64,000 bases of DNA, taken from assembly GCA_001662655.1 (NCBI GenBank), contig KV460218.1; one strand, given 5' to 3'. This document shows, one piece after another, positions 1 through 20,275 of this stretch (its first letter is position 1; each line of letters opens with the position of its first letter). Below the pieces are notes generated by a model. It searched no databases and had not been told where the DNA came from. It saw only the letters and a list, made by a program, of their open reading frames with translations. The stretch is from Pseudogymnoascus verrucosus. Lineage: Eukaryota. The position numbers and the translations under genes were made by a program.

Positions 1-3000
1 TTCTTTGCAGGGTTAAATGTCGCAAGGATGGGTGCCTCCGTGAACTTCGTCTTAAGTTCCTAGAAGGCAGCCTCCGCTTTGTCTGTCCATTTGAACACGA
101 GATCCTTCCTAGTGAGCTCTGTGAGTGGTTGAGCTACCTTGGAATATCCCGCAATGAACCGACGGTAGAAGTTGGCGAAGCCTAAGAAGGCTTGTACTTC
201 CTTGACCGTGGTTGGTGTTGGCCATTCTAACACTGCCGTGACCTTTGCTTGGTCCATCTTGATGCCGTGCGTTCCGATAATGTAGCCTAAGAATTCGACT
301 TGGTTTTTATGGAACTCACATTTCTCTAGCTTCAACAGTAGGTTGTATTCCTTCAGCTTCTAGAGGACGAGCTTGACATGCCTAGCATGTTCGTCCTTGT
401 TTGCTAAGTATACTAGTATATCATCTAAGTAAACGATCGTGAATATGTCTAGATATTCGTGCAAAGCGTCATTCATTAAGCGTTGCATGGATGCGGGGGC
501 GTTGGTTAGCCCGAAGGGCATGACTTGATATTCGAATAGGCCATAGCGGGTGCGGAATGCTGTTTTCCACTCCTTGCCGTCGGCTATCCGGATTAGGTTG
601 TACGCGCCGCGTAGATCTAGCTTGGTGAAGATCTTGGCTCCCTGGAATCTATCGTGTAACTCATTAATTAGCGGTAAAGCGTACCGGTCCTTTATCGTTA
701 TGTTGTTCAATGCTCGATAGTCCACGCATGGTCGTTTGCTTCCATCCTTCTTGGGAACCTATAACATCAGGCTTCCCGCAGGAGATTTAGACGGTCTGAT
801 AAATCCTTTCTTAAGGTTATCGTCGATATATTCTTTCAGTAGTTTCAACTCATCTGCTGACATCTGGTATATTGGTCCGAACGGTAGACTCTTTCCTTCT
901 TCCAAGGGTATCACATGATCCTATGGTTGGTGCTTAGGAAGCGCCTCGTTCTTGGGGCCTTCCTAGAATAGCTGCTCGTATTCCTCATACTCCACCGGTA
1001 TACTCGTTAGTAAGGGTGCCTAGGCTAGGTCACTGGGCTCTGTGGAGGTCGCACACACCTCGCGTCAGCCCTAGGAGGTCTTCTCCCGTTATGGCGTGTC
1101 CGTTCGTTGTTCACACGCGCACTGGCTCATTACAACTTTCTCGTTCTACCAGTCGATCTGGGGGTTGTGTTTCTTAAGCCACAGCACACCAAGGATACAT
1201 GCATGATTGTCTATGTGTACGATGTCGAATTAGATCGTTTCCTGGTGTCTGCGTAGCATGACCATTTCTAATGGGACCGTCTCGTAGGTCACCATCCCCT
1301 TGTTGGTCGAGATGGGCTCTCCATCTACTACCATTAACGGGTAAGGATCGGTTTTCAATTGCGTCTTGAAACCTTGAGTGTCTGCTACTTTCTTTGTCAT
1401 AAAGTTGCCCGTTGCTCCTAAGTCAATCATGGCTCGGAGGTGTCGCTGTTGTATCTTAGCGACTACATATAGCTGCATGCTGCCTCCCGTGGCGCACAGC
1501 TGCTTCGTACTAGGCCTCTCTTTGTCACTCGCCGGTGGCCTACCGTTGAGGACTCCTAGTTTTTTGACTCGTCCGAGGAGTAATAGTGGTGTTCATCATC
1601 CTCTATGGGCGGTCCTTGGGAAGATTGTCCTCCCTATCCTTCTGCTTCATCTAGCAGGTGCGGGTATCTCTCGTATACCTGTTGTTGTTTCTTTAACGGT
1701 AGTTCTCCTTTAGACTGACTTCGTCTAAGGGCATGAATTTGGTCTATATCCGTAAAGTAGACCTAAGGTGCGATTTTTGGAAATAGTCGATACTGGGTCT
1801 TTTTCCGTAGGTGACTCTCGTAGTCATTGTACTTGCAGTGTTCCTAGAATATATATGGGTGCTAGGGGTGATCAATCCTTGATGCATCCAACTTTGTCAA
1901 TTCCTGTTCCTCCTTTGTCTTGCCCGTGAGCTCGGATTTCTCCATGGTTACACGTAACCTTTCTACGTCTCCATCGGTGGGTTTGTAGTCCATAGCAGCT
2001 TGGTCTGCTTGCAGTTCCTAGGGTTTAGGTCCCTGAGTGTTCTCCTGCTGTTCGTCTTGCGCGTCGTATTCCGCAAGCTTATATTTTAACTACATCGTGG
2101 CCTTACTCGAGGTGTGATTTGCTCCCCTAGGTTCTTGTCTAAACGGGTACCTAGGGCAGCACCTCATTGCGCGGATTGCGACTTCCTAGTCTTGTTGGGT
2201 ACCTTGCCAGCCGGTTGGGGGCGGTGGTACGGGAATCGCTCTTGGAGTTCCCTTTCGGAGCATGGCCTGTCTGTAGACGTCGACTACTCCTGGTAGATTC
2301 TCCTTAAATGCAATCTCCTTCGCGTCTTCTTCGAACTCCTTTAGCTGGAGTTTCTAGGATTCCGTTAATCCCCTGTTTAGGAGTTCGTTCTCCTTCTCGA
2401 GCGATGCGTCGAAGTCGTTGAGATCTTCGTCGCCCAAGCTCTCTCCTTCTAGGGTGCTAACGCTAGTGATTCCCTAGTCGGGTTTGTTCACGAACGTGGC
2501 GTTCAACTGTCCCTTCTAAGTGGCGTTAAGTTGTCTCCTAAACTTCTTATGTCCTCCGTTCCCTTTCTTAGGTTGCTTGTAGTCTTGGGCCATGTGGCCC
2601 AGCTTGTTACAATTAAAACACAACCGCTCCTTGAGCTGTCGCTCTTTGTTTGGGTTACGGGGTCTCCCACTAGGCTTGAACGTAGCGTCGAGCTCCATAG
2701 GCTGAGGCTAATGACTCTTCTGAGTTCTCCTCTTTTGGGTCCATTAGTGGCTGGTTGTTCCTCCCTTCCTTTCGAGTTGGCGTTCGTAGTAACGATTGTC
2801 GATCTTCTAGGCTATCTCAATTAATTCTTTAAGGTCATCTGGTTTGTCCGACCGGGAGATTTCGTCCTTTACATGATCCTTTAGCCCCTTGTAGTATCGG
2901 TCGCATATAGCCTCGTCTCCCCAACTAGTGAGGGGGGCATGCTGCTGGAACTCAGCAGTATATGTGACCGCCGACCCCCTCTGCTTAAGGGCCTCGAGGG

Positions 3001-3491
3001 CTCGCACTACGTTTCTTCTTTCGTTAACGTCCCCGAAGTTCGCCTTGAGTTGCTTAACGAAGCTAGCCCAAGTGATGAAGATATCCTTGGTGCCTTGGTT
3101 AGCCGTCGTGGTGACTCTTCCGTTAGCCGCTCGGTAGCTCATGTAGTCCGTTAGGTAATTAGCAATCTAGTCGGAGGCGGAGCCCCTTAGGAGGGCCACT
3201 GCCCATAGGACTTGCTGTACTTCAAAGGCGAAGTGCTTAGCGTTGAAGGCCATCTAGAGTTCCGTCTAGATGAGGAAGCTCTTAAGCTTCTTGCGGTCCC
3301 CATTAAAGGTATCTAGGAATGCAATCTTGAGTTTGTCTAAGGGGTGTGGTCCCCCGGGCGCAGGCGTAGTGGTAGGTGACAGGACAGGCTCGACAGCTGC
3401 CTTGCCCTTCGACCCCACGTTGGATGCTGAATCGTTTCTAGCCATGTTGCTTTGTGTATGAGCCGGTACCTCGTAGAAGTGGTGCTCAAAG

Positions 3492-3912
3492 TGTAACGCT
3501 AGGTCTTAAACTATAAGACTCATAGAGGTTTCGTTACGTTGGTTNNNNNNNNNNNNNNNNNNNNNNNNNNNNNNNNNNNNNNNNNNNNNNNNNNATCTAC
3601 TTATATAGTGGCGTCGTGCTAAAGGGGATAGTTAGGATAGTTGGATAGCCCCAACTATCCCAACTATCTAACTATCTATCACGTGAGCTATTCTCTTTCT
3701 AGTACCTGTGATTCTTCTGGTACCTGTCTATCTAGTACCTCCTAATCCTTAGGTGCCTAACTGTCTTCCGGTACCTGTAAACCTAGGTACTAGACACCCA
3801 TTAGGTGCCTAATAACTAACCCTGCCTTAAAGGTGGTTAAATCGCTAACATTCTCATTACTACTATAACTAGTGTGTCGGCGAAACTGTAGCCGTAAACG
3901 CTAGCCGTAACA
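3492..3912 (-). repeat. 5' LTR of family A copy 1 (contains the assembly gap)
   Basis: TGTAAC...GTAACA termini. The first ~50 bp and the TATA region match the LTRs at 11205 and 17758. Confidence 0.9.
3545..3594. other. Assembly gap (50 N)
   Basis: Run of N. Confidence 1.
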
Positions 3913-6900
3913 GTAGGTCCTATAGCAGTCCTAGTAGGTTTAGGTACTCTATATAGAACTCCTAGATTTTATAGGGGGAGTTCTTAAAGTTTAAGGTAGG
4001 GTACCATTCTAGGTCTAGATTATATCTAACCTAGGATACCTAGTATTAGAGTTGTTTTCGCTAGATCCTTATAGTAAGAATCTTTTTAACTTCCTACTCT
4101 TCTAGGCTGTCTACAACTTTGCTACTTAGCTTAGGCGCTGCTTAACTAGGTAGTAGATTGCTTAGGGCCTTAATAAGTATATCTAGTAAGAAGACATTGT
4201 GTATTTAGGAACCCTTTAGCAGGTCTAATTAAAAGGAGTGCCTGATTTGTTCTAGTACTATATAGGGTCTAACCTATTGTTACCCTAACTTCTAGCTAGG
4301 GTAAGAGTTTCTTAAGTTCTTAGTTAATAAATAAACCTTGTTACCTACATCCTAATTAACAGCTCTTTAGCGTCGATTTGTGTGCTTAGACATCTCTTCC
4401 TATGCTTTAGCTATATTTCCCTTTATAATAGCCTATGCGTTATGCATTTAGGTAGCTACTACTTTAGCTTCGTTGCAATTTAGAGTTTCTTAGGGATTAA
4501 TAGCCTTTAGGGTGTTCTAATCCCAACTTGTATGTAGATCAGTTCTATACTTAAGTTAGTAGGGAGTTATCCTAATAGATGTGTAGGGCAGCGTCATTTG
4601 TACATAGTCTATAATAGGAATGAGCTTGCTCTAATTGTCCTAGTAATAGGATACAAAAGGCCTTAGTCTCTAGTCTATATACTAGTTTATAATTTCTATC
4701 TATCTGTTAGTCTGCTTATAGTAGGCTGTTAACAATTTAACCTTTATGCTAATTATTTAGTAGAACTTTTACTAGAAAGACAATACAAATTAGGGTCTAT
4801 AGTTGCTAATAATCAACTCTAGAGTGTGCCTAAATTAGTATATCTATTTAATGAACAACTATGCCATCTATCTAGCGTTAGTAGTCTTGTAGTATAGTAT
4901 AGTTACTAAACTCTTTCTAAGTTAGTCTATAAATACTAAGATGCTGTTATAACTATGCTTATCCTTTAGAAACTCCTTAAAGTCTATCGTTAGGTGTTAT
5001 ATAGGGTATTTAGGTACTAGTAGGGGGTATAAGAAGCCTTGCTGCCTTGTTACGTTAGTGTAAGAAAGTTAGCATGTTATGTAGTTACATATATATTAGA
5101 GGTAATCTGCTTCTATTCTAACCTAATGATACTTTAGGGCAAGTAACTAATAAGTTTTCCTACTACTAGGGTAGGCTACTAATACTTAATCGTGTGCTTC
5201 CTATATAAGTTTTATACATAACTTAGTATGCTAGTTTACATATAGTCAACCTTTATATAACAAGAGTTAGTCCTTTATTGTAAACCTGTTAGGTAGGGGG
5301 TCTTTTGTATAAGTGTTAGTAAACGACCTTCTATTATCTACGTAAAGCGCTTCTATTAGGTTAAAGGGAACCTAGGTGTTTAGGGCATCTATTGTATTAA
5401 TTAAGGCTATGTACGTTTGTGCTAATTTAGTACTAATTTAGGGGTATAGTTAGGCTAGGCCTAATAGCACCCTTGTATAGCTATTAAGTTTAACCTTCTG
5501 TTATGTAATTAGGTCTTACTCTCTTTAGCTTAGTATATCTGCCTTCTAATTGTTCTTGCTAGTAGTATATGCAATAGAGAAATTGAAGTTAGAGAGTAGC
5601 TCTATCTACTAAACCTACTTTGCTATAAGAACCTTTGTCGTTATAAAGTATTCTAGCAATTAGTAATTAGTGTAAACGTCGATTTAGTAGTGTACTAATG
5701 CTAATTCTAGCCTCTATTTTACAAACGCTTTTATAATAGCAAACAGTTCCTTGTTATAGATCTTCTAATTAATCTCGTGCCTAGATAGGATATAACTATA
5801 GAAGCTTATAGGATACTATCGTTTGTCTAGGTGTTCCTAAGAAAGAACACTAGCTACAACTCTATTAAAGGAGTCTGTCTCTAGCTTTATAGGCAATTTA
5901 GGGTTAAAGTAGTAGAGCGCCTATATAGCTAAAAGCTGTTAGCGCATTTCCTTAAAAGCGTTCTTACATTTGTTAGTCTATAGGAACAGTTCTAAGGGGC
6001 TAGTAATAGTAGTAAGAGGCTTAGCTATTTTCCTGAAATTTCTAATAAATTAGCAATAGAAGCTATAGAATCTAAGGTAAGACTTTACACTTATAACTAT
6101 TGTTAGTTGGATCTAATTCTAGAGGGGTTTAATCTTCTTAGGGTCTACTTTAACGCTAGTAGTAGTTAGGATATAGCCTAAATACTTTGTCTAGGTTACG
6201 TTAAACTTGCATTTCTTAATGTTAGCTTGTAGTCCTACTTCTTAAAGCTATTAGAGGACCTTATATATATAGTCTATATGTTCTATAGGGTCCTTAGAGT
6301 AGATTAGGATGTTGTCTAGGTAGGCAGTATAGAAGTTGTCTAAGTATTGTATAAGAACGTCGTTTATATACCTCTAATAGGTTATAGGGCCGTTTGTTAG
6401 GCTAAACGGCAGCACTTTACATTTATAGGATCTATATTGAGTCTAAAAGGTTATGTACTCTTTAGAGTTAGGGTCTATTTATATATAATAGAAGGCTTGT
6501 CTAATGTCTAGCTTTGTAAAGATTTTTGCTTTTGCTACCTATCCTAGTAGTTTGTTAATACATAGGATAGGGTAGGGGTTGTTATAGGTTAGTCTGTTTA
6601 ACTTCTAGTAGTTAATATAAAATCTTAGTTTGCCATCTACCTTCTTTACAAACAGTATAGGGGAGGCAAACAGGCTATTACTATTAACTATAAAGCCCTT
6701 CTTAAGGTTCTCTAATAGGTATTACTTAGTTGCCTTAAGCTCTTTAGTGCTTTGTTAGTATAGTAGCAAGAAGGCGTTTAGTAAAGGGGCTTCTAGCTAT
6801 ATCTAGTAATTGTATATATAATGTAAGGGAAGCTAATTAGATTCTAACTTTAAAAAGACATTAGAATAGTTATAGTGCATATATAGAAGCTTGTCCTAAA

Positions 6901-9824
6901 TAAGGTAGAGCGTTTCTTTATCCTTAGCTACTTTCCTCTCTTAGATGATCTAGTTAATCTTATAGATGCTTGTTATAAAGAACTTAGAGTTGCTTTGCAT
7001 TATCTTATAGTAGAAGGCGTTTGCGCTAATCTTGCAAATTTAGACTAGCGTGAAGCTACGTACTAGGGTCTAGCGTTAGGAAAGAGAGAAGACTCTACCC
7101 CTCTTATAATTCTTTCTCTTATATGTAGATGGTCTGTTTCTTAGAGGTTTCACCTCTACTTACCCTAAGGGTCTGTCTTTATAGGTTTATATAGGCAAGG
7201 CTTGTGTCCTTAGGGTTTTAGGGTGTAGGTAGGTTGTTCCCTTATCTTATACTAAGCTTAGTAGGGTAATTATAATAGTGTTATAATAGGCTGTTATTAC
7301 TTTCATTAGTATTAAGCGTCTACCCTTACATCGTCTGTTGTTATAGTCGATGGCATTGTCCTACTAGTTTGTATCTAATTAATAGGTAGGGTAACGTATA
7401 GACAGTTTACGTAAGTAGTAGGGCAAGGTGATCTCTTTACTCTAGCTAGGAGTAGGCAAGTACTCCTTTAGCTATATTAGCTAGCTCTTTATAGAGTTAA
7501 GTAGGATTTAGAAGCAGCTAAAAAGCTTCTTCCTAATTATTACATCTTACGCTCTAAGATCTAGGAGCATAAAGGGGCAGTTATATATTTAGCATCCTTT
7601 AACTGTTAAGTGTAACTAAATATACTCTAATACATAGCTTTAGATATTTCGCTAAAATCTATATATAGGTATAGAGTAGGGTAGTTTCTATAGGGGGCTC
7701 TAAAGCGCTTTTAACAACCGTTATGTAAAAGGCTTATTAATGATAAGGTAGCCATTTACTCCTATGTCTATAAGTGACTTCGTTTACACCCTAAGTCTGT
7801 TTATACTTAGGGTTGTATTAACGAGAAATTAGGAGCCTCTTAAGAGCTCTTATAAATCTAGTCCTTATAGATTACATTTGCATAGACCTAGGAAGGAGCC
7901 TTTTCCTAGGCCTTGTCGTTTTCCTCTAAGGATGCATCTAACTAGTAGGCAACTACTTCCTCCTACTACTCTTTATCCTTAGGGGCTTTATAGTTAATCT
8001 CTTTAATAGTAGGGTTAAGTAGGCATTTGTCCTAGAAATAGCCTAGCTTTCTACACTTAAAGCAGTTTCTAGACATAGCTAGAATAGCAGTCTATACGTA
8101 GCCTATAATGTCTAGCTTAGGGGTAGTAGGTATAAAGGGAGTCCTCTAGAAGGAAACTAGAGGGCTTCTTATCTACCTTAGTAGCTAGGCCTTTTTAAGG
8201 TCTATAGGTGTAAACCTAGATAAGCTTAGGTAGGCTAGTCCTTAGGAGCTTAACTCGCTGCTCTTAGACAGGAAGCTTAACTCGTTGTTCTAGCGCTACT
8301 CCTAATTAAAGGAAGTGAGTTCTTAGACTATAGTGTAGTAGTCTCCCTTCTATTAACTTTTAATAACTACTATATAGCTACAGAATTAAGGGGTTAACTT
8401 GTTCTATATATACTAAAACCATTCTAACTTAGTAACCTATCCTATAATAGCTACACTTTAGAAGCAAGCTTTAAACTCTAAGAAAGTCTTGTATGTATAT
8501 CCTTTCTCTCTTATTTAGAGGTTGTTAAAGAGGTTCTAGGCCTATTCCGTTTCATTGCTAGTAAGGTAATATAAACCTAATAGGTCTATTATCTCGTTAG
8601 TACTCTAAAACCTATGTGTTATAGATAGGTATTAGGGTTTAAGGTATTTCTTTACTAGGCTAGTTGTAGTTCCCTATATTAACGCTCTTCTTAAGACGTT
8701 AGTAGGGTAGTAATCCTTATTAACTATAAGGTAGTCCTAAATAGACACGCTCTATTATATAAAGGTATGTTCTATCCTATTGCTAAGTAGTATAATCTTC
8801 TTAGAGATAGTGGATTTCTTATAGCAATTTAGAGGGTCTTTAGAATACATCCTTAGAATCAATAGAGAACAAGTGTTTTAAAGAGGCAGTAACTAAACTA
8901 TCTTAGGGGTGTTTTATATAGGGGAAGTTTGTTGCTCCTTAACTTTAACAGTATCTACTAGTAGCGTAGACAGTATTCTAGTCTAGGTTACTACTAGGTT
9001 AGCTATCATTTCCTTAATCTCTTACATCTAGATCTTAAGGTTTGCTATTTAATCTAGTATGTTATTAGTAGGTGTAGTAGTTGTAGCTATAGTAGTAGTT
9101 TGTCTTATTAACATTTGTAACAGTTAACTATTATTGTCTTAGGGGATAGTTAAGGTCATTTTCCTTATATTAGTTTAGGGGTGTATTAGTGTTGATATAA
9201 AAGAGTTTAACTTTCTAGTAGCTTGTAGCTATTAACACTCTTATTTACAATTACCTCTATGCTTAAGGGGGTTCTTAAGGATCTTATATCCTATTTAGCA
9301 CTAACGTGTTAGCAACTTTACTAGCTTGCTCTATAGGATTAAACCCTAATCTACTAGCTGTTTATAAGTTCTCTAAGGTCATAGCTATTTAAATTCGTTA
9401 GGTCTCTACTTTAAAATGTCACTAAGTTACAGTTAGTAGTGTTTCGATAGTTCTCTTAAGTTGTTCTAGTTATAGGATATTATTTAAGTACGGCTGTCCC
9501 TAGTAGGCGTGATCTTTTTTGTATAATGTAAGGATATAGGGCACTATATTACAAGGAGTTGTATATAGGAGTGTAAGTTAGATATAAGTCAGTGTAATCC
9601 TATAGGTCTACTATAAAGGATATAAAAAAGATAAAGGGGGAACCCTCTGTTCCTCTTTCCTTCTATACCTAAAACCCCTCTAACTTAACTAACCCCCTAT
9701 TTACCTAAGGCTTCCTTATGCTATGTGCCTAAGGCTTATAGTTGCAATTAAACTATAACTACCCTAAGTCTTAGGGGCAGCACATAACGACTATAACTAA
9801 CCTAAGTAAGGAGGCATCCTTACA
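3913..9824 (-). mobile_element. Ty3/Gypsy retrotransposon family B, heavily RIP-mutated; interrupted at its integrase end by family A copy 1
   Basis: Minus strand reads AYLDNILI (RIP form of YLDD) at ~6301-6327. RNase H and integrase remnants lie at ~4000-5950, protease at ~7600-7800 and gag with CCHC remnant at ~7900-9300. The LTR is at 9527-9824. Confidence 0.88.
9527..9824 (-). repeat. 5' LTR of family B
   Basis: Perfect 9-bp inverted termini TGTAAGGAT...ATCCTTACA. The first ~115 bp recur at 19558. Confidence 0.88.
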
Positions 9825-10348
9825 CTAGGTCTTAAACTATAAGACTTATAAAGGTTTTGTTACGTTAGTTTACTTAATAGAGGAGGTAGGGGATTAGATA
9901 CTAAAGGCTTTTATAAAACACATTATAGTATATAACAAAATACTATATTAAGTTAAGTATAAAGCTCCTATCTAAGAAATAACTATCTACTTATATAGTA
10001 GTGTTATGCTAAAGGGAATAATTAGAATAGTAGACTCTCTAACTATTCTTACTATTCCTACTAATCTAATTATATGTGTGTTCTATAAGAGGTGCTATAC
10101 TTATTAAAGGTACTAATTCCTATAGGTGCCTTTCTAAGGAGGCACCTTACTCTATATAGGTGCCTTTTCTAATAGGCACCTCTCCCTTACTAGGTACCTT
10201 CTAAGAAAGGTACCTTTTCCTAAAGGTGCCCTTATTAACTAAGCTACCTATAATCTCTACGTCTATTTCCTACTACTAATTAGCTATAAGCTATTTTACC
10301 TTATTACTCTATCTTATAGTATATAGGTTATATGTTTTAGCTATAACA
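9825..10348 (-). repeat. Family A LTR lacking its first ~7 bp, directly abutting the family B LTR
   Basis: Near-identical to 11205-11733 and 17758-18286; ends CTATAACA; no polypurine tract follows. Confidence 0.9.
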
Positions 10349-11204
10349 TGCCTCTAGACCTTCTTCTAAATACTATATATAACTATAACTATAGAAAATA
10401 GACCTTACTATTAAGTAATGTCCTATGTTTAGTAATAAAGAGTGTAAACTAATAGTAACTCTTAATAATTATAATGTCTAGAATTTAGTATATACTATAA
10501 GGGTCTATATTAATTCTAAGAAGTTAGGCTTATATAATAAAGTCCTAGAGACCTTTAAATTAAAATATATTAAATAAAAGTAATATACCTATTAGTACTT
10601 TGTTTTGTATATATAATTCTATAACATAATTTACATACAAGTTGCCTATATAAGCAAGTTGCCTACTAAAACACTAAAATTAACTATTACTTCCTACTAC
10701 TATACTACTACCCTACATAATAACCCTTATTCAATTGTAATTAATTCCTAGCGCCTATTGTATATATAGGTATTATGTCTAATCTTCTTACATTAGCTAT
10801 AACGCTTCTATTAACCCTTAGAGCCTACCTGCTAACTACTCTTACTTACTACCTCTATATAGACTTAAGCATTAACCTCTACACTCTAAAGGATATCCTC
10901 TACATCTTATATAGAGAGGCTTCCCCCTTACATTATATACCTCTTACACTTCCTTTCCCTCCTCTTTTTCTGTTTATTTGCTGCTTATAGAGCCTTAACT
11001 TCTACCTTTAGTAAAATAGTAGAATGTATTATAACCTAAGCTCCTTTAGCAAGCTAGCTTAGTACGTTAGTAATTAAGCTAGGAGAGCTATTCTAATACT
11101 ATATAATGTAGTTCCTAACGTACTCTATTTAAAAGTCAAGCTCCCTTATAGTTTAAGGAGTCTTTAAAGTCTAATTATTACTCTTAACTATAGGAGGAGT
11201 TAGA

Positions 11205-14200
11205 TGTAATACTAGGTCTTAAACTATAAGACTTATAGAGGTTTTATTACATTAGTTTACTTAATAGAGGAGGTAGGGGATTAGACATAAAGGCTTTTAT
11301 AAAACACGTTATAGTATATAACAAATACTATATTAAGTTAAGTATAAAGCTCCTATCTAAGGAATAACTATCTACTTATATAGTAGCGTTATGCTAAAGG
11401 GAATAGTTAGAATAGTAGACTCTCTAACTATTCTTACTATTCCTACTAATCTAATTACATATGTGTTCTATAAGAGGTGCTATACTTATTATAGGTGCTA
11501 ATTCCTATAGGTGCCTTTCTAAGGAAGCACCTTACTCTATATAGGTGCCTTTCCTAATAGGCATCTCTCTTTTGCTAGGTACCTTCTAAGAAAGGTACCT
11601 TTTCCTAAAGGTGCCCTTATTAACTAAGCTACCTATAATCTTTATGTCTATTTCCTACTACTAATTAGCTATAAGCTATTTTACCTTATTACTCTATCTT
11701 ATAGCATATAGGTTGTATGTTTTAGCTATAACACTAGGTCCTCTCCCTTAAGGCCTAGTCCTATAAGCCTTACTAACTAAGAGTCCTACTAGCCTACTTA
11801 AGCATAGTAGGTCCCCTATATTTATAGGGTAGGTAAGGCTACAACTATGTCTTCCTCTAAACACTTGAAAATTAAAGAACGCAAACTACTTACTAACTAC
11901 ATAACCTATAAAGGGGTTAAAATGCCTCCCTATTCCTATTATAAGAAACGAGGTCTCTACTACCTTGCTTCCACTTCCTCTAAACGATGTAATAAATATG
12001 TTTATATAAATTCCTACAACTATAACGTCTCTAGCCCTTCTACTAGCAACTAGCAGTTGCTATAGAAAGAAGAAGATTATCTTTACCTTAAAACTTATAT
12101 AACCTATAAAGCTATAGTAACTACTATAGCGTGTCTTAACTGCCTTAAGTAACAGTAGGACCTCCTTAAGACCTAAGGTGCTAAGATGCTTTATTATAGC
12201 TTAAAGACCCTAGACGAGCTAAAGGAGGTAGAGGAACGTAAACAGCATAAGGCTAAAGCCTACGCTTACCTTGCTAGCCTTTCTACTACTAACCCTAAGG
12301 GCGTTGCTTCTAAGCACAACTACCTATCTACCCTTTCCCTTAGGTTCTTTAATTGCTAGGGTGTTAACAGTAGAACTCTACTAGCAACTCTAGGCAGCTA
12401 AGGTTTCCCCTTAACTCCTATAAGTTGTCTATAGGTTTATAACCTTTCTATTTTATTAAAAACTCTTCTTAGCGTCCTACTAACCTCTTGTCTAAGATTG
12501 CCTTAACCTTATATTTAATAGTTTCATTCTTAGGTTAAAGTTTAGTGTCTGTTGTAATTAGGGCGTCCCCTCTTACTAGTTCTAATAATGAAATATAAAA
12601 CACTAAGTAGAGTTTAGAGTTCTTAGGTAGCTATAGCTTATAATTAACTAAGCTAACTTTCTCTAATATCTTAAATAGTCCTAATTTCTTAAAGTCTAAC
12701 TTTGTACTTAGTCGTTTTGTTTTAATGTGTTTCTAGAGTAGGTATACTTTATCCCCCTCCTTAAAGGTAGGTTCTATACTACGCTTCCTATTTACATATA
12801 TAGTAGATCGTTTATTTAAGAACTAGATGTCCATTATAAGTTGTTTCTAGAAGGAGAGTATCTTTAATACTTCTAACGTTCCTTCCTTAGAACGAAATTT
12901 ATCTAGTCTTAGCATCTTATATACCTCTAGTTGCTATCTATTGTTAGTAAAGAATAGTAAGACTTTTGTTACCTCTAATAATGCTAAGTTGTATACAAAT
13001 TCTGCTAAATGTAAGTACTAAACCTAATTGTCCTATTTAGTGTTAACATAGCTTTATAAATATACTTCTAACGTCTAGTTAGTTTGTTCTATTTGTCTAT
13101 CTATTTATAGATAAAAAGCTATAGATAGCTTATAGTTTGTTCTAAGCTGCACTATAACTGTCTACTAGAATTTAGATGTAAAGAGCTTGTCTTAATTTAA
13201 AATTATCTTGTCTAGTAGTCTATATGCTATAACGATAACTTTTAGAAAGATATATACTAATGCCTTTATGTCTAACGCTTCCCTAAACAGTGTAAAGTGT
13301 GCTTCCTTTATAAGTTAGCAGTTAGAGACTATAATAGAGTCTGCTATAAATCCTGTCATTAGTTCTTTTAATAGTAGTAACTTAATAATAAAGTTAATTG
13401 CTATTAAGGACTATGCTTGTCCTAGTGTTAGTAGTGACTTTAAAAGTCTATATAGTGCATGTCTATTTGCTTTTAACTTCTAGTAAATGTTACATCTTAA
13501 CATAACTGTTTCTACCTACTTCCTTAGTCCTAGGAAGTAGTAGTATTATGCGATTTGTTTAAAGGTTCGTGTTACTCCTTAATAACTATGTGCTAGCAAC
13601 GAGTGTTGTTCTTATACTAGTAGGCGTCTTATTTAACTTAGGATATATACTAATCCTTTAAATTAGATTAGCCCTTATTCGTTAATAGAGAAGTTTCCTT
13701 TAACTTTATTTAGGGTTCACTTTGCTATTTCGTCTATTGTATAAGCGTTCTTAAGTCTCTGCTTAAGTTCTATATCTTTTATAATGGCAATTATAGCTAG
13801 TAATTTGTTATATTACATTCCTATGTCTATTCTCCTTAATATTGCTCTAGGTCTTTCTTCCTTTAGGCTAACGTAGTTAGTCCTTCTACTAAGAGCATCT
13901 ACTCTTATATTCTTAGAGCCCTTATAATAGGTTATTATAAAGTTGTAGGCTATAAGGGTTTCTGCCTAGCAGACTTGTCTATAGTTTAGAACCTTAGTTA
14001 TAGTAAAGTATATAAGGTTCTTATAATCTATCTATACCTATATAGGGTAGGTAGATCCCTTAAGATATACTTGCTACTGTTTAAAGGCAACAATAATAGC
14101 TAGTAGCTCCTTATTGTAGATATTATAGTTAAGTTCTATAGGTAATAGTTTCCTAGAGTAGTATGTAATTGGTTTAAACTTACTGTTCTTGTCTAGCTAA

Positions 14201-17200
14201 TTTAGACATGCTCTAATTATAAAGTCTAAAGAGTCTATCTTAAGGATAATCTTCCTTATAGGGTTAAATGTAGCAAGGATAGGTGCCTCTATAAACTTTA
14301 TCTTAAGTTCCTAGAAGGTAGCCTTTACCTTGTTTGTTTAGTTAAACGTAAGACCTTTCCTAGTAAGCTCTATAAGTAGTTAAGCTACCTTAGAATATCC
14401 TATAATAAACTAGTAGTAGAAGTTAGCAAAGCTTAAGAAGGCTTACACTTCTTTAACTATAGTTAGCGTTAGCTATTCTAACACTACTATAACCTTTACT
14501 TAGTCTATCTTAATACTGTGCGTTCTAATAATGTAACCTAAGAATTTAACTTAGTTCTTATAGAACTTACACTTTTCTAGCTTTAATAGTAGGTTGTATT
14601 CTTTTAGCTTCTAAAGGACAAGTTTAATATACTAGGCATATTTGTCCTCGTTTACTAAGTATACTAGTATATTGTCTAAGTAAACAATTGTAAATATGTC
14701 TAGATATTTGTATAAAGTATCATTTATTAAGCGTTATATAGATATAGGGGCGTTAGTTAGCCTAAAGGGTATAACTTAATATTTAAATAGGCTATAGTAG
14801 GTATAGAATGCTGTTTTCTACTCCTTGCTGTTAGCTATCTAGATTAGGTTGTATACACTATATAGGTCTAGCTTAGTAAAGATCTTAGCTCCTTAGAATC
14901 TATTATATAACTTATTAATTAATAGTAAGGCGTATTAATCCTTTATCGTTATATTGTTTAATGCTTAATAGTCTATATAGGGTCGTTTACTCCTATCTTT
15001 CTTAAGGACCTATAACATTAGGCTTCCTATAGGAGATTTAGATAGTCTAATAAATCCTTTTTTAAGGTTATTGTTAATATACTCCTTTAGTAGTTTTAAC
15101 TCATCTACTAACATCTAGTATATTAGTTTAAATAGTAGACTCTTTCCTTCTTCTAAAGGTATTATGTAATCCTATAGTTAGTGCTTAAGAAGCGCCTTAT
15201 TCTTAGGGCCTTCCTAGAATAGCTACTTATATTCCTTATACTCTACTAGTATACTTGTTAGTAAGGGTGCCTAGGCTAGGTTACTAGGCTCTATAGAGGT
15301 TGCATATACCTTACGTTAGCCCTAAGAGGGTTTCTCTTATTATAGTGTGTCCGTTTATTGTTTATATACACATTAGCTCATTATAACTTTCTTGTTCTAC
15401 TAGTTGATCTAGGGGTTGTGTTTCTTAAGCTATAGTATACTAAGGATACATATATAATTATCTATATATAATGTTAAATTAGATTGTTTCCCTATGTCTA
15501 CATAGCATAACTATTTCTAATAGGACTGTTTTGTAGGTTACTATCCCCTTATTAGTTAAGATAGGCTCTCTATCTATAACTATTAGTAGGTAAGGATTAG
15601 TTTTTAATTATGTCTTAAAACCTTACGTTTCTACTACTTTCTTCGTTATAAAGTTGCCTATTGCTCCTAAGTTAATTATTGCTTAGAGGTGTTGCTGTTA
15701 TATCTTAGTAACTATATATAGCTATATACTGCCTTTTATAGCACATAGCTGTTTCGTCCTAGGCCTATTCTTATTGCTTATTAGTAGCCTACTGTTAAGG
15801 ACTCCTAGTTTTTTAACTTATCTAAGGAATAATAGTAATGTTCATCATCCTCTATAGGCAGTCCTTAGGAAGATTGTCTTCCCTATCCCTCTACTTTATC
15901 TAGCAGGTGTAGGTATTTCTTATATACCTATTGTTATTGCTTCTTTAAAGGTAGTTCTCCTTTAGACTAGCTTTGTCTAAGGGCATTAATTTAGTCTATA
16001 TCTATAAAGTAGACCTAAGGTGCAATTTTTAGAAATAATTAATACTAGTTCTTTTTTTATAGGTAACTCTTATAGTTATTGTACTTATAGTGTTCCTAGA
16101 ATATATATAGGTGCTAGGGATAATTAATCCTTAATGCATCTAATTTTGTTAATTCCTATTCCTCTTTTGCCTTACCTATAAGCTTAGATTTCTCTATAGT
16201 TATATATAACCTTTCTATATCCCTATTAGTAGGTTTATAGTTTATAGCAGCTTAGTCTACTTGTAGCTCCTAGGGTTTAGGTCCCTAAGTGTTTTCCTAT
16301 TGTTCGTCTTATACGTTATATTCTATAAGCTTGTATTTTAACTAAATAGTAGCTTCCTTAGCAGTGTAGTTTGCTCCTTAGGGTTCCCTCCCTTATAGGT
16401 ATCTAGGGCAACACCTTATAGTACAAACTATAACTTCCTAGTCTTGTCTAGTGCCTATCTATCCTAATAGGGGTAGTGGCATAGGAATCGCTTAGAGGGT
16501 CCCTTTATAAAGCATGCTCTGCCTATAGATATCTACTACTCCTAGTAGATTCTCCTTAAAGGTAATCCCCTTTACATCTTCTTTAAACTCTTTTAGCCTA
16601 AGTTTCTAGGATTCTATTAATCCCTTGTTTAGGCGTTTGTTTTCAACTTTAAGCAATGCATTAAACTTGTTAAGATCCTCGTTGTCTAAGCTCTGCCCTT
16701 CTAGGGTGCTAACACTATTAACTCCCTAATTAGGTTTGTCTATAAACATAGCGTTTAGTTATTTCTTAAACTTATACCCCTCGTTCCCCTTCCTTAGTTG
16801 CTTATAGTCCCTAGCTAGGTAGCTAGGCTTACTATAATTAAAGTACAATTGCTCCTTAATTTGCTTTTCCTTTTAGGGGTTGTAGGATCTCTCGTTCTTA
16901 AACGTAGCATTAAGTTCTATAGGATCTAACCATTAGTTGTCTTGCTAGTAGTTGTCCTATCTTCTACCTTCATTCTTTTAGTAGCTGTTATACTTCTTTA
17001 GTTTGTTATAGTTCCTTTTTTCTTTCTAGAACTTATATAGCTAGTTGTTGATTTAGACTATGTGTTTAATTAGCAACACTATATCTATAAGCTGATTCTC
17101 TATTTATATAAGTTCTAGGTAGACATAACTTTTTAAGCTATAGCGATAGTAACTAATAAGCGCTTCTATATCCTAGTAAGTTTAATTACTATACCTCTAG

Positions 17201-18286
17201 AACTTAGTAGAGTACATTAACACACTTCCTGTCTGTTTCAACAGATATAGGTAGTCTTCTATAGTCTTAACTTTGTTGATGTTGCTAAATATACATTATA
17301 TTTCCTTCTTAAACCCCTTCTATTTACTAAAGATAACGTTAGTTGTAGCCATTATGCTTATTATGTCTTTATAGGCAAAATAGTCTTTAAGGAATAGTTT
17401 AATCCATTAGAGAGCCTCTCCTCTTAAGTAGGAGGCTGTCTATATAGTATAGCTTTTAGTAGTTAGGAACTTGTTATTATTAAAGTGTTAGTATAGTTTA
17501 ACCTATAGTAGGAATACCTTAAGTTCCTTTCTATTACTAGAGAACGTGTTAGGGAGCTTAACTTAAAGAGTCTCCTTAAGTTCTAACATAATAGGTAGTG
17601 TATCTAGCATCTCCTTATTCTTAAGTAGAATGTTCTATAATAACTATAGGGTTAGTGTATTAGGTTGTTTAATAACACTCCCTCTTAGGCTTAGAATAGT
17701 TAGAGCTATAGTTGCTTTACTATATAAGCTAGTACCTTATAGAAGTAGTGCTTAAAGTGTAACGCTAGGTCTTAACTATAAGACTTATAGAGGTTTTATT
17801 ATGTTAGGTTACTTAATAGAGGAGGTAGGGGATTAGACACTAAAGGCTTTTATAAAACACATTATAGTATATAACAAATACTATATTAAGTTAAGCACGA
17901 AGCTCCTATCTAAGAACTATCTATCTACTTATATAGTAGCGTTATACTAAAGGGAATAGTTAGAATAGTAGACTCTCTAACTATTCTTACTATTCCTACT
18001 AATCTAATTACATATGTGTCCTATAAGAGGTGCTATACTTATTACAAGTACTGATTCCTATAGGTGCCTTTTTAAGGAGGTACCTTGCTCTATATAGGTG
18101 CCTTTCCTAATAGGCACCTCTCTTTTACTAGGTACCTTCTAAGAAAGGTACCTTTTCCTAAAGGTGCCCTTATTAACTAAGCTACCTATAATCTCTATGT
18201 CCATTTCCTACTACTAATTAGCTATAAGCTATTTTACCTTATTACTTTATCCTATAGTATATAGGTTGTATGTTTTAGCTATAACA
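11205..18286 (-). mobile_element. Full-length (7082 bp) chromovirus-type Ty3/Gypsy element, family A copy 2, heavily RIP-mutated
   Basis: Two ~529-bp LTRs (11205-11733, 17758-18286). 5-bp TSD TTAGA at 11200-11204 and 18287-18291. Polypurine tract near 11740-11751. pol is collinear with copy 1. Chromodomain remnant at ~12370-12515 (YKVKAILDKRLVGR*EEFLIK*KGYKPIDNL*E). Confidence 0.95.
11847..12401 (+). pseudogene. RIP-damaged antisense ORF (~184 codons) of the retrotransposon; six-Cys cluster plus coiled coil
   Basis: Single frame from ATG 11847 to TAA 12401, with internal stops all of RIP type (TAG/TAA). Tyr codons fall at the spacing expected of Cys (TGY>TAY). The downstream part is helical and charged (LKTLDELKEVEERK). 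Confidence 0.65.
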
Positions 18287-19557
18287 TTAGAGTCCTTAAC
18301 TATAGATTTAAGTAAGAGAGGACATTCTACAGCTTATATAGAACTAGTCTTATAGCTTAGAACCTACTCTTAATGTTCTACTCTATAAATGTAGCTTTAA
18401 AGGCTTCTTTAAATGTAGAGAGGAACTTAAGCTTTATAATGTAGTTTAGCTAGTTCTATATAAAGGTTTTAATCTACTTTCTATATAAAAGCTTTAGTAG
18501 TGTAAAGTAGCTTACATTAAGAGGCTAAAGAATATATAATAAGTATAGTGGTATATAGAGGGTAATTATCTTCTATTCTATATAGTAGTATTAAAATTAA
18601 GTAGAGAGGTAGCTCTTATATCTGTTAAGAATAAGAAGGTAATAGGTTCTAACTATATAAGCATTTGTATACTAATTGAAATGTTAAATCTACTTATACC
18701 TAATTAAATTTAAAGTCTACCTATTCTTACTTAGTGTAATTACCTAATTGTCTAGTAATCTTAAGTCCTTATACTAAGTAGAGAGGTAATTCTATACCTT
18801 AAAAATAATAAATAGTAAGAGTGCCTATTTATACAAATTAACACCTTAGATAATTAACACCTACTCTCTATTTCTAAGCTATATAGTCTTTAGATAGCTC
18901 TTTACTTCTAAGCTTATAACTACCTTTATAGTAGTAATAACTCCTATTATAAAACCTGCTTTATTAAAGTTGTAGATATCCTGCTCTAAGATTCTATATT
19001 TTACAACTATGTTTTGTATAAGAGTAAACTACCCTTAAATTATCTTAAGATCTTTACATTTTGCTTGTTTATAATTATACTTCTAACTAAACTTTGCTTT
19101 AATTTCTATATAACGCTTTATAAAGTTAGTAGTCTAGTTCTTCCTAATAGGGCTTACACCTTATTTAGAAAGTAAAAGGTCTACTATTTCTTATATACCT
19201 TATAGCTAAGGTAGAAATCTATGTAAATCTAGGTTAAGGATGTACTAAATAAGAGCTAACTCTTTATATAGAGTTAACTTCTATAAGTTAGGGATAGAGT
19301 TGTAAGAGGAAGCTATTCCTTAAATTCGTTAACATAGTGTCGTTTAAGGGATATTATATAATGCTACAGCTTCTTAAACACTTTAAAATTAGCCTTGTCT
19401 AATTGTACTAATAGCAAATAGTATTCTACCCTCCTAATTAGAGGATTTGGCTTATGTTAGTTATAGTATATTAACTGTAATTACGTTAATACATTCTAGT
19501 GTTTTAGTAGGCTACTTACCTATATAGGCCACTTGCTTATAAAATACGTTAGCTATA

Positions 19558-19804
19558 TATAAGGATATAGGGCACTATATTATAAGTAGTTATATATAGA
19601 AGTATAAGTTAGATAGGAGTTAGTATAATCTTATAGGTCTACTATAAAGGATATAAAAAAGATAAAGAGGGAACCCCTTAAGTCTATTCCTCTAAGTATC
19701 TAAAATAGCTCTAACTTAGTTAGCTAGCCCCTAGCTCCCTATATATAACCACCTTAGCTCTAAGTCTAGTCCTAAGAATATATTAAGGATAGGGCATCCT
19801 TATA
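19558..19804 (-). repeat. Family B-related LTR, isolated and RIP-mutated
   Basis: TATAAGGAT...ATCCTTATA termini (RIP form of TGTAAGGAT...ATCCTTACA). The first ~115 bp match 9527-9645. No clean TSD. Confidence 0.75.
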
Positions 19805-20275
19805 GGTTCTAATATATATAGTTATATAGGAAACTTAATATATAGATAAGGGGTTATAAGCTAATATAGTATATTATAGTATAATAGGAAAGAAAACATA
19901 TACTTTTATTATAAATTCTTCTTATATATTATAGAAGCCTAGAAATAGGAGCGCCTCTAGAAGAAGAGCCTATCTTAGCTTACTAAATTAGGCCTTCTAA
20001 TTCCTCTAGAGTTAGAAGACCTAATTACTAGCCTAGAAGCTAAGCCTAAGAGCTAGTATAATAGTGCTAGTGTAGGTAGGAGTAGGCGTGGGAGTAGGCG
20101 TGGGAGTGGGCGTGGGAGTGAGAGTGGGAATGAGGAAGTGATAATTTCGTAGAATTGAATTTATAAGTACTTTTGTATACAATTTACTATGGTTAGGTAC
20201 TTACGGTCGCAATTTGAACGCACGCAACTTGCTTCTACTTTTAAGCGAGTGCGCGCAACTTGCTTCCACCTACGA
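19805..20275. mobile_element. Probable right end of another degenerate DNA transposon
   Basis: RIP-like AT-rich sequence ending in a doubled CGCAACTTGCTTC motif (20223-20267). This resembles the doubled CAAGTTGC in the Fot1-like TIR at 10624. Confidence 0.4.

What the first reader, a model, noticed from the sequence alone, without database searches (positions are those of the whole stretch)
11847..12401. Antisense six-cysteine / coiled-coil gene carried inside a chromovirus retrotransposon
Seen: between the chromodomain and the 3' LTR there is a ~184-codon frame on the strand opposite gag-pol. It starts 113 bp from the LTR and overlaps the end of pol. Reverting RIP (TAY>TGY, TAG/TAA>TGG/CAR) turns MPPYSYYKKRGLYYLASTSSKRCNKYVYINSYNYNV into about C-x2-C-x6-C-x8-C-x2-C-x7-C. 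A charged helical region follows. Established: Zn2Cys6 DNA-binding clusters have very similar spacing and are often followed by a dimerisation coil. Inference: the element encodes its own regulator or anti-silencing factor, transcribed antisense from the 3' LTR, analogous to HTLV-1 HBZ. Only one of the six Cys survives unmutated, so the motif is reconstructed.
Basis: partly seen in the sequence, partly recalled or inferred. Interest (0 to 1): 0.85.

Follow-up and report, generated by a model that had tools for sequence, protein, structure and literature searches.

The report
Dead antisense zinc-cluster gene in retrotransposon
A mutation-wrecked fungal jumping gene carries, backwards behind its polymerase gene, the remains of a small zinc-cluster protein gene that intact related elements keep under strong selection; a gene in this position was already reported in Botrytis elements.

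Summary
Window 11847-12401 (+) is a 184-codon frame with six stops. It starts 113 nt from the 3' LTR of a complete, RIP-degraded chromovirus on the minus strand (11205-18286) and overlaps the end of pol by about 113 nt.

This gives C-x2-C-x6-C-x8-C-x2-C-x7-C. All six stops derive from Trp, Gln or Arg codons.

The protein belongs to a family of at least 56 clusters. Five Cys are invariant and the sixth is kept in 30 of 31 members. In close pairs dN/dS is 0.01-0.10. In 44 of 51 metagenome loci the gene abuts the chromodomain end of pol on the opposite strand.

Sequence profiles and two fold searches point only to GAL4-type Zn2Cys6 domains, but with weak scores. Only 2 of 34 members pass Pfam's cut-off. 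A long helix and an acidic tail follow the cluster, and a homodimer prediction passes narrowly.

Function, transcription and the HBZ analogy remain untested. The layout is already in print (brtn of Boty-like elements, 2011). This copy is dead. I rate it a new member of a known kind, of moderate interest.

The parts
11200..11204 (.). Target-site duplication TTAGA (left copy; the right copy is at 18287-18291)
   Evidence: The same 5 nt flank both LTRs.
11205..11733 (-). 3' LTR of the minus-strand chromovirus (TGTAA...ATAACA as read on the + strand)
   Evidence: It is 94% identical to 17758-18286 and 95% to the solo LTR at 9822-10348. Many contigs of other runs diverge at 11733/11734 (table 7).
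11740..11749 (-). Polypurine tract (the + strand reads CCTCTCCCTT)
   Evidence: Read directly from the sequence next to the LTR end. The same CCCC(C)TT run follows the LTR end in 8 intact relatives.
11847..12401 (+). RIP-inactivated antisense accessory gene (184 codons, six stops)
   Evidence: It is 59% identical without gaps to the intact 197-aa P0003. It is the only copy in the window.
11931..12023 (+). Codons 29-59: former six-Cys cluster (five TGY>TAY; codon 48 is still TGT)
   Evidence: Codon-by-codon comparison with L001. The Cys columns are invariant or nearly so in alignments A1 and A2.
12177..12221 (+). Codons 111-125: the family's most conserved helical motif (G-A-x-M-L-x-x-x-L-K-T-L-D-E-L)
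   Evidence: Columns R123, M127, L128, G131, L132, D136, E137 and L138 of A1 are at least 90% conserved.
12289..12401 (.). Tail-to-tail overlap of the accessory gene (+) with the last codons of pol (-)
   Evidence: The window's pol tail is colinear with L001's and ends in a stop at 12289-12291. In 20 intact loci the overlap is 89-224 nt, and 113 nt in 10 of them.
12364..12513 (-). Chromodomain relic of pol (approximate)
   Evidence: tblastn with L002 pol covers 15471-12355. Pfam places Chromo at residues 1106-1155 of that pol. The coordinates were mapped by arithmetic.
12289..17580 (-). gag-pol relic, riddled with stops
   Evidence: Six-frame reading. tblastn with L018 and L002 gag-pol hits 12355-15823 and 16750-17580.
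17758..18286 (-). 5' LTR

Best explanation
The stretch is a dead copy of an accessory gene that a lineage of fungal Ty3/gypsy chromoviruses carries on the strand opposite gag-pol. Repeat-induced point mutation killed it. The gene sits between the 3' LTR and the chromodomain end of pol, which it overlaps tail to tail.

In intact elements it encodes a protein of about 180-200 aa. The protein has a basic N-terminal helix, a six-Cys cluster of the Zn2Cys6 (GAL4) type, a helix of about 50 residues that probably mediates dimerisation, a very conserved second helix, and an acidic tail.

My best guess for its function is a zinc-dependent, dimeric DNA-binding regulator. It would be made from an antisense transcript that starts in or next to the U3 end of the 3' LTR, and it would act on the element's own LTR promoter.

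Shown here:
- the gene is real;
- the coding strand is the + strand;
- the Cys are conserved;
- the gene is under purifying selection;
- its place in the element is fixed;
- this copy was damaged by RIP.

Inferred: the zinc-cluster fold (about 0.8), homodimerisation (about 0.6), and DNA binding with self-regulation (about 0.4). The overall figure below is for the whole statement.
For: Gene and Cys:
- P0003 matches at E 6e-51, 59% identity, no gaps, with the same C-terminus.
- 56 cluster representatives match at E<=1e-3.
- In 31 intact members C42, C45, C52, C61 and C64 are invariant, and C72 is kept in 30 of 31.

Coding strand and selection:
- Six pairs qualified. Five of them, four independent, have dN/dS 0.01-0.10 in the + frame against 1.6-5.7 in the opposite register.
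- Differences sit at codon position 3, for example 3/1/49.

Position:
- 44 of 51 loci have the integrase-SH3 plus chromodomain end of pol on the other strand abutting the gene.
- Pfam confirms SH3_Tf2-1 plus Chromo in 26 of 28 such ORFs.

Zinc cluster:
- Pfam Zn_clus is the only recurrent family, hit by 24 of 31 members at E<=1.
- A profile against PDB sequences aligns all six Cys with GAL4 (E 0.07) and PUT3 (E 0.24).
- AF2 models have pLDDT 86.6 and 90.0.
- In Foldseek, ranks 1-24 are all Zn2Cys6 domains. LAC9 aligns at rmsd 2.3 A over 36 columns.
- An independent VIA search of 48,161 chains ranks HAP1, LEU3, PUT3, PPR1 and GAL4 (twice) as 1-6.
- UniRef names three Sclerotinia members Zn(2)-C6 domain proteins.

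Architecture: mean net charge is +2.9 for the cluster and -6.3 for the tail.

Dimer: score 0.33 against a best control of 0.01. That mark was reached by 21 of 30 solved homodimers and 0 of 23 single chains. The runs agree in at least 57% of contacts, and the partner's pLDDT is at least 73.
Against: - Only 2 of 34 members reach Pfam's curated 21 bits. Most Pfam alignments cover half the domain.
- No fold match has E<=1e-3 or Z>=5.
- The best PDB profile hit is the Beclin-1 coiled coil (E 0.021), not a zinc cluster.
- The Pro usual before the fourth Cys is absent, and an acidic residue follows the second Cys.
- No conserved CGG-N-CCG sites were found in 8 LTRs.
- The predicted dimer is antiparallel, unlike GAL4. 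The pass is marginal and may come from the model's memory.
- Nothing is known here about transcription. This copy cannot make the protein.
Confidence: 0.55

Rival explanations
1. The protein is real and element-borne, but it is not a transcription regulator. Its zinc cluster and helices would serve another step of the element's life cycle, such as binding element RNA or cDNA, guiding integration together with the chromodomain, or blocking a host defence.
For: Conservation, selection and fixed position are equally explained. Membership of Pfam Zn_clus is borderline, with 2 of 34 members passing. No CGG-type sites were found in the LTRs. The antiparallel dimer model would place the two clusters far apart. 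The gene always overlaps the chromodomain end of pol.
Against: Every sequence and fold comparison points to DNA-binding Zn2Cys6 domains and to nothing else. A basic cluster, a coil and an acidic tail are the layout of a minimal activator.
Confidence: 0.25
2. What matters is the antisense RNA. A transcript converging on pol would form double-stranded RNA with the genomic RNA and feed or tune small-RNA silencing. The protein would be secondary.
For: The constant 89-224 nt overlap with pol. Retrotransposons of Botrytis are a main source of small RNAs (PMC8365987, passages read).
Against: Very low dN/dS (0.01-0.10), with changes at third codon positions in the part that does not overlap pol, shows selection on the protein. 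So do the invariant Cys. The two roles could coexist.
Confidence: 0.1
3. The frame is a chance open stretch, the shadow of a minus-strand frame, or a captured host fragment without function.
For: The opposite-register frame has even fewer stops (5) in the window. It is often open in intact relatives too, at up to 247 aa.
Against: Codon-position pattern and dN/dS favour the + frame in every close pair. There are 56 cluster representatives and 101 profile hits. The gene keeps the same place in 44 of 51 loci, whose pol C-terminal parts are 47-97% identical in the 15 loci compared.
Confidence: 0.02

Closest known systems
[quoted passage not shown] 2011, Virology 417:248). The paper itself is not held; I know it from its title and from citing passages in PMC8365987, PMC7264820, PMC4227169 and PMC5987419.
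   Same: Both are fungal (Leotiomycetes) chromoviruses with the gene on the opposite strand between pol and the 3' LTR. Function is unknown in both. The family found here has Sclerotinia sclerotiorum and Stromatinia members. A Monilinia transcript was reported to match both truncated Pol and BRTN, which fits an overlap with pol (PMC5987419).
   Different: Sequence homology to BRTN could not be tested. No BRTN sequence was on hand, and none of the 101 + 38 listed hits bears that name. Whether Zhao et al. noted a zinc cluster is unknown to me.
GAL4-type Zn2Cys6 binuclear-cluster transcription factors (GAL4, PUT3, HAP1, LEU3, PPR1; Pfam PF00172)
   Same: The six-Cys spacing matches. There are two short helices that each start at a C-x2-C, then a helix after a linker, and an acidic C-terminal part. 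These proteins are the top hits in profile and fold searches.
   Different: Scores are weak, and 32 of 34 members fall below Pfam's cut-off. The protein is only about 190 aa, and no Pfam family other than Zn_clus recurs across members, so nothing like a regulatory middle domain was detected. An extra basic N-terminal helix is present. The helix is about 50 residues long and is predicted to pair antiparallel. The gene is carried by a retroelement, not by the host.
HBZ of HTLV-1 (recalled from general knowledge, not from a call)
   Same: A regulator-like protein with a coiled-coil dimerisation region, encoded on the minus strand next to the 3' LTR of a retroelement.
   Different: HBZ is a bZIP protein of an animal retrovirus. 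Here the DNA-binding module is a zinc cluster, and antisense transcription from the LTR is not shown. The likeness is in layout only.
Antisense additional ORFs between pol and the 3' LTR of plant Ty3/gypsy elements (Grande, RIRE2, Retand, PvRetro13; review PMC7264820, passages read)
   Same: Same place and orientation in the element. They are conserved within families, and their function is unknown.
   Different: Those are plant elements, mostly not chromoviruses. No sequence relation was seen, and no zinc cluster is reported in the passages I read.

Membership tests
Zn2Cys6 binuclear cluster (Pfam PF00172 Zn_clus) | Six Cys spaced C-x2-C-x6-C-x5-12-C-x2-C-x6-8-C | tested here: met
   Intact relatives have C-x2-C-x6-C-x8(7-10)-C-x2-C-x6-7-C. 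Five Cys are invariant and one is kept in 30 of 31 members, and all six are kept in 21 of 21 loci. In the window only 1 of the 6 codons survives.
Zn2Cys6 binuclear cluster (Pfam PF00172 Zn_clus) | Reaches the family's curated profile score | tested here: inconclusive
   2 of 34 members reach 21 bits (22.5 and 21.1), 14 of 34 have E<=0.01, and 24 of 31 have E<=1. Most matches cover half the profile. UniRef labels 3 Sclerotinia members Zn(2)-C6.
Zn2Cys6 binuclear cluster (Pfam PF00172 Zn_clus) | Fold of the cluster (two short helices around two metal sites) | tested here: met
   The domain model has pLDDT 90. Foldseek ranks 1-24 are all Zn2Cys6 domains, with best E 0.066, and 1cld aligns at rmsd 2.3 A over 36 columns. 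VIA ranks 1-6 of 48,161 chains are Zn2Cys6 proteins at Z 4.6-2.9. The scores are weak because the domain is small.
Zn2Cys6 binuclear cluster (Pfam PF00172 Zn_clus) | Binds two zinc ions and DNA | not testable with these tools
   Needs protein chemistry. Basic residues lie at positions +2, +3 and +6 after the second Cys. No CGG pairs are conserved in the LTRs.
Zn2Cys6 binuclear cluster (Pfam PF00172 Zn_clus) | Dimerisation helix after the cluster | tested here: inconclusive
   Helix 79-129 has pLDDT above 95. The homodimer score is 0.33 against a best control of 0.01. The mark was reached by 21 of 30 solved homodimers and 0 of 23 single chains; contact agreement is at least 57% and partner pLDDT at least 73. 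The contacts are antiparallel, unlike GAL4.
brtn-like antisense accessory gene of fungal chromoviruses | Lies between pol and the 3' LTR on the opposite strand of a Ty3/gypsy element with a chromodomain | tested here: met
   For the window. Among relatives, 44 of 51 loci show it; 4 lack room and 3 have room but no pol. Pfam confirms it in 26 of 28 ORFs.
brtn-like antisense accessory gene of fungal chromoviruses | Sequence homology to BRTN of Botrytis cinerea | not testable with these tools
   No BRTN sequence is on hand and no hit bears that name. The family does include Sclerotinia and Stromatinia proteins.
brtn-like antisense accessory gene of fungal chromoviruses | Transcribed | not tested
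   No RNA run was listed as holding the stretch, so nothing follows either way.
RIP-mutated repeat | Excess of C>T and G>A changes, high TpA/ApT, low (CpA+TpG)/(ApC+GpT) | tested here: met
   123 of 162 differences from L001 are G>A or C>T in the window, 61 of them in CpG and 41 in CpA/TpG contexts. The indices are 1.97 and 0.44, against 0.80 and 1.12-1.16 in genic DNA.
HBZ-like antisense bZIP factor | bZIP domain | tested here: not met
   No bZIP family appears among the Pfam hits of 31 + 34 members.

The most novel reading that the evidence does not exclude
A whole lineage of fungal chromoviruses encodes its own minimal GAL4-like transactivator: a zinc cluster, a dimerising helix and an acidic tail. 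It would be expressed divergently from the U3 end of the 3' LTR. It would bind the arrays of GGAYC-type palindromic repeats that lie in U3 between the sense TATA box and a conserved CACGTG box. That would give these 'simple' retrotransposons a positive feedback loop like the transactivators of complex retroviruses.
Probability: 0.25. Interest if true: 0.75.

Novelty: new member of a known kind. Interest (0 to 1): 0.45.

Why it matters
If the protein is a DNA-binding regulator, LTR retrotransposons of fungi would carry a transcription factor of their own. That is otherwise a hallmark of complex retroviruses, and it could explain bursts of activity or tissue- and stress-specific expression.

There is also a practical consequence. 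Members of this family sit in public fungal annotations as 'hypothetical protein', as 'Zn(2)-C6 fungal-type domain-containing protein' or even as 'dynactin complex subunit'. They therefore inflate host gene and transcription-factor counts, and should be masked as transposon genes.

The case also shows that a coding frame and even a metal-binding motif can be read through heavy RIP damage. It shows the limit as well: most Tyr in such DNA were Arg, not Cys.

Tried and rejected
- Whole genome: none is held for this window, so other genomic copies could not be collected. I built no de-RIPped consensus; natural intact relatives answered the question.
- Pfam on the raw window frames, both strands, with X at stops: nothing found.
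- RNA evidence: no RNA holder was listed, so nothing can be said about expression.
- Laid contigs at 80% likeness give only short pieces. The GC-rich copies appear only as loose ends.
- P0019 (1290 aa, a Tyr-rich repeat protein) among the representative hits is taken as a composition artefact.
- The Beclin-1 hit is taken as generic coiled-coil likeness.
- VIA second look on the whole model: only helical matches, uninformative.
- A search for CGG-N(0-15)-CCG, everted or direct pairs in 8 LTR regions found no shared site.
- The GGAYC enrichment was chosen after looking at the data. It runs at 19.9 per kb in the LTR regions against 4.7 per kb elsewhere, 78 against 241 hits. It is a lead only.
- Co-divergence of the gene with the pol C-terminal part, over 15 loci after I dropped 5 near-duplicates: Pearson 0.46, Spearman 0.28, and 0 of 2000 permutations reached it. 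A few close pairs drive the result, so it is weak.
- The sixth close pair in the dN/dS table (L029/L030) gave 0.54. L030 lacks the Cys motif.
- Zhao et al. 2011 is not held. The two text supplements of PMC8365987 hold no 'brtn'; its figure S1 could not be seen.
- Literature searches for a zinc-cluster gene in a retrotransposon found none in the held library. That is not proof of absence.
- Earlier notes by place and by sequence gave nothing.
Full report
**The window.** Bases 4000-20000 are AT-rich, about 30% G+C against about 50% elsewhere. Their dinucleotide indices are typical of repeat-induced point mutation: TpA/ApT is 1.97-2.06 and (CpA+TpG)/(ApC+GpT) is 0.44-0.48. Genic parts of the window give 0.80 and 1.12-1.16.

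Self-comparison and an LTR alignment define a complete LTR retrotransposon on the minus strand. The 3' LTR is 11205-11733 and the 5' LTR is 17758-18286, 94% alike, flanked by the 5-nt duplication TTAGA. A solo LTR lies at 9822-10348.

Translated searches with intact relatives place gag at 17580-16750 and pol at 15823-12355, ending in a chromodomain. The pol stop is at 12289-12291.

**The observation.** The + strand frame 11847-12401 has 184 codons and six stops. Only its first 68 codons form an intact ORF. It overlaps the end of pol by 113 nt.

Six stops in 184 codons is rare in this DNA. Of 30,900 such windows in the six frames of 4000-20000, only 76 (0.25%) have six or fewer, against a mean of 19.5. 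The exact opposite-register frame has only five, so the count alone cannot name the coding strand.

**Less-mutated copies.** No genome is held for the window, so I used public data. Contigs of four coded runs lie on the stretch by the hundred. Their differences are nearly all transitions; in run X1, 306 of 333 places are. GC-rich copies appear as loose ends that read in the + frame. One reads M-P-P-C-S-R-C where the window has M-P-P-Y-S-Y-Y.

A word-indexed protein search found one intact protein, P0003: 197 aa, E 6e-51, 59% identity, no gap, same C-terminus. A member of its 90% cluster is a hypothetical protein of Pseudogymnoascus sp. 24MN13.

Codon by codon against its DNA (L001), the window's five Tyr codons at 29, 32, 39, 51 and 59 are TGY in L001, and codon 48 is TGT in both. 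The six stops are TGG, CAG, CAG, CAG, CGT and TGG in L001. Of 162 differences, 123 are G>A or C>T in the window.

The method was lucky as well as right: of the window's 20 Tyr only 5 were Cys, and 12 were Arg.

**A conserved family.**
- An exhaustive profile-free search gave 56 cluster representatives at E<=1e-3, mostly 140-220 aa. Several carry RIP-like Tyr in place of Cys.
- A profile search gave 101 hits at E<=1e-5.
- In 31 intact members five Cys are invariant and the sixth is kept in 30.
- A second very conserved block (R-G-x-E-M-L-R-R-G-L-K-T-L-D-E-L-D-E-A-E) and a C-terminal F-W...G-G-T-P-x-A-S-Q-G-S follow.
- Named members are all 'hypothetical'. They come from Pseudogymnoascus species, Stromatinia cepivora and Sclerotinia sclerotiorum. 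UniRef calls three Sclerotinia members 'Zn(2)-C6 fungal-type domain-containing protein'.
- The ESM Atlas lists only unnamed, mainly ascomycete clusters of 122, 62 and 90 members.

**Coding strand and selection.** From 51 metagenome loci I took 34 intact genes, 28 of them distinct. I compared close pairs over the part that does not overlap pol.

Six pairs qualified. In five of them, four independent, dN/dS is 0.01-0.10 in the + frame and 1.6-5.7 in the opposite register. Differences fall on the third codon position, for example 3/1/49 for L001 against L002. The sixth pair, which involves a damaged copy, gave 0.54. The + frame is the gene, and it is under strong purifying selection.

**Fixed place in the element.**
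- In 44 of 51 loci the integrase-SH3 and chromodomain end of pol lies on the other strand, abutting or overlapping the 3' end of the gene. Four loci lack room, and three have room but no pol (L015, L035, L050).
- Several contigs are near-duplicates, so about 37 of the 44 are independent.
- Pfam found SH3_Tf2-1 plus Chromo, and RT, RNase H and integrase where the ORF was long enough, in 26 of 28 abutting ORFs.
- The tail-to-tail overlap is 89-224 nt, and 113 nt in 10 of 20 loci.
- Many contigs are circularly permuted units of 6.1-6.45 kb with intact gag-pol and an intact accessory gene. Live-looking elements therefore exist.

**Is it a Zn2Cys6 cluster?**
- The spacing fits.
- Pfam Zn_clus is the only family that recurs: 24 of 31 members at E<=1 and 14 of 34 at E<=0.01. 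Only 2 of 34 reach the curated 21 bits, and most matches cover half the profile.
- A profile against PDB sequences aligns all six Cys with GAL4 (E 0.07) and PUT3 (E 0.24 and 0.32). The top hit, however, is the Beclin-1 coiled coil (E 0.021).
- AlphaFold2 models are confident: pLDDT 86.6 for the whole protein and 90.0 for the 70-residue domain. They show two short helices at the two C-x2-C pairs, then helix 79-129 and helix 135-156.
- Foldseek finds nothing at E<=1e-3, yet ranks 1-24 for the domain are all Zn2Cys6 DNA-binding domains. The best E is 0.066, and LAC9 aligns at rmsd 2.3 A over 36 columns.
- An independent scan of 48,161 chains puts HAP1, LEU3, PUT3, PPR1 and GAL4 (twice) at ranks 1-6, at Z 4.6-2.9.

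I conclude that the fold is very probably a binuclear zinc cluster, and that the family is a divergent relative rather than a textbook member.

**Rest of the protein and the dimer.** The N-terminal helix and the cluster are basic, with a mean net charge of +2.9 each. The tail is acidic, at -6.3.

A homodimer prediction for residues 36-160 scored 0.33, against 0.01 for the best of three controls. That mark was reached by 21 of 30 proteins solved as homodimers and 0 of 23 solved as single chains. On eukaryotes the figures are 17 of 29 and 0 of 30, and a pass may come from the model's memory. The runs agree in at least 57% of contacts, and the partner's pLDDT is at least 73. The contacts run antiparallel along helix 81-135, unlike GAL4.

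**Mechanism.** Shown: a real, selected, element-borne gene for a zinc-cluster-like protein, dead in this window.

Inferred: it is a dimeric DNA-binding regulator of the element, made from an antisense transcript starting at the U3 side of the 3' LTR.

As a lead only: the LTRs of eight intact relatives share a TATA box, arrays of GGAYC-type palindromic repeats and a C-C-A-T-C-A-C-G-T-G-A box. The repeats run at 19.9 per kb against 4.7 per kb elsewhere, but the pattern was chosen after inspection. These features lie between the sense promoter and the accessory gene, as a divergent promoter would. Canonical CGG pairs are not conserved.

**What is known.** An antisense gene, brtn, between pol and the 3' LTR of Boty-like chromoviruses of Botrytis cinerea and Sclerotinia sclerotiorum was published in 2011. 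I saw only citing passages (PMC8365987, PMC7264820, PMC4227169, PMC5987419), because the paper itself is not held. Plant elements have similar antisense ORFs (PMC7264820).

The present family has Sclerotinia members and the same position, so it is probably the brtn family (my estimate is about 0.75). I could not test this. Three searches of the held library found no paper describing a zinc-cluster gene in a retrotransposon.

Earlier notes of this scan report the same theme in other genomes. They are unchecked, and I used them only as context.

**Verdict.** The functional reading is open, and the novelty is modest.

Noticed in passing
window 1-3544: A second, much less mutated copy of the same element (G+C 47-51%). 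It is 78% identical in DNA to 14252-16755, and its pol part is 84% identical in protein to L002 pol. It runs off the left edge, so its own accessory gene is outside the window. It has no ORF above 121 aa, so it too is dead.
   Followed up: partly
window 9822-10348: A solo LTR of the same family, 95% identical to the 3' LTR.
   Followed up: partly
window 4157-6871 (-): The relic of another, distant Ty3/gypsy element, 30-36% identical in protein to the queries. No accessory-gene match lies next to it.
   Followed up: partly
window 9526-9687 and 19557-19718: A direct repeat of 162 nt at 82% identity brackets the solo LTR and the full element. It may be the two halves of an older repeat into which they inserted.
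   Followed up: no
L019:3228-3731, L009:1756-2290, L023:2905-3381, L026:1499-1962, L016:6035-6475, L020:6011-6513, and the LTR regions of L037 and L014: The LTRs of intact relatives share a TATATAG box (7 of 8), arrays of GGAYC/GRTCC repeats and a CCATCACGTGA-like box. A conserved CGCTTAA[AG] lies about 20 nt beyond the polypurine tract, some 70-90 nt before the accessory gene's ATG. This could be the gene's core promoter.
   Followed up: partly
L009, L010, L014, L018, L019, L023, L026, L037, L047, L048: Metagenome contigs of 6.1-6.75 kb carry 99-331 nt terminal direct repeats at 97-100% identity. They are circularly permuted assemblies of one LTR plus the internal region, and several have uninterrupted gag-pol of up to 1833 aa. 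This suggests recently active elements in soils and peat.
   Followed up: partly
L032:4188-4661 and L033:2288-2761: This family member has only a degenerate pol remnant beside it (41% identity). A long minus-strand ORF lies over it, and an ORF with a C2H2 zinc finger lies upstream. It may be a decaying or a co-opted copy.
   Followed up: no
protein P0177 (named Pseudogymnoascus destructans VC83_04919 by its source): This gene model joins an unrelated N-terminal part to the C-terminal two thirds of the family, without the Cys cluster. It is probably a mis-annotation over a damaged element.
   Followed up: no
proteins P0098, P0108, P0126, P0044: Automatic names such as 'dynactin complex subunit' and 'adenine-specific DNA glycosylase' are attached to family members in one source. 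They are likely artefacts of the coiled coil.
   Followed up: no
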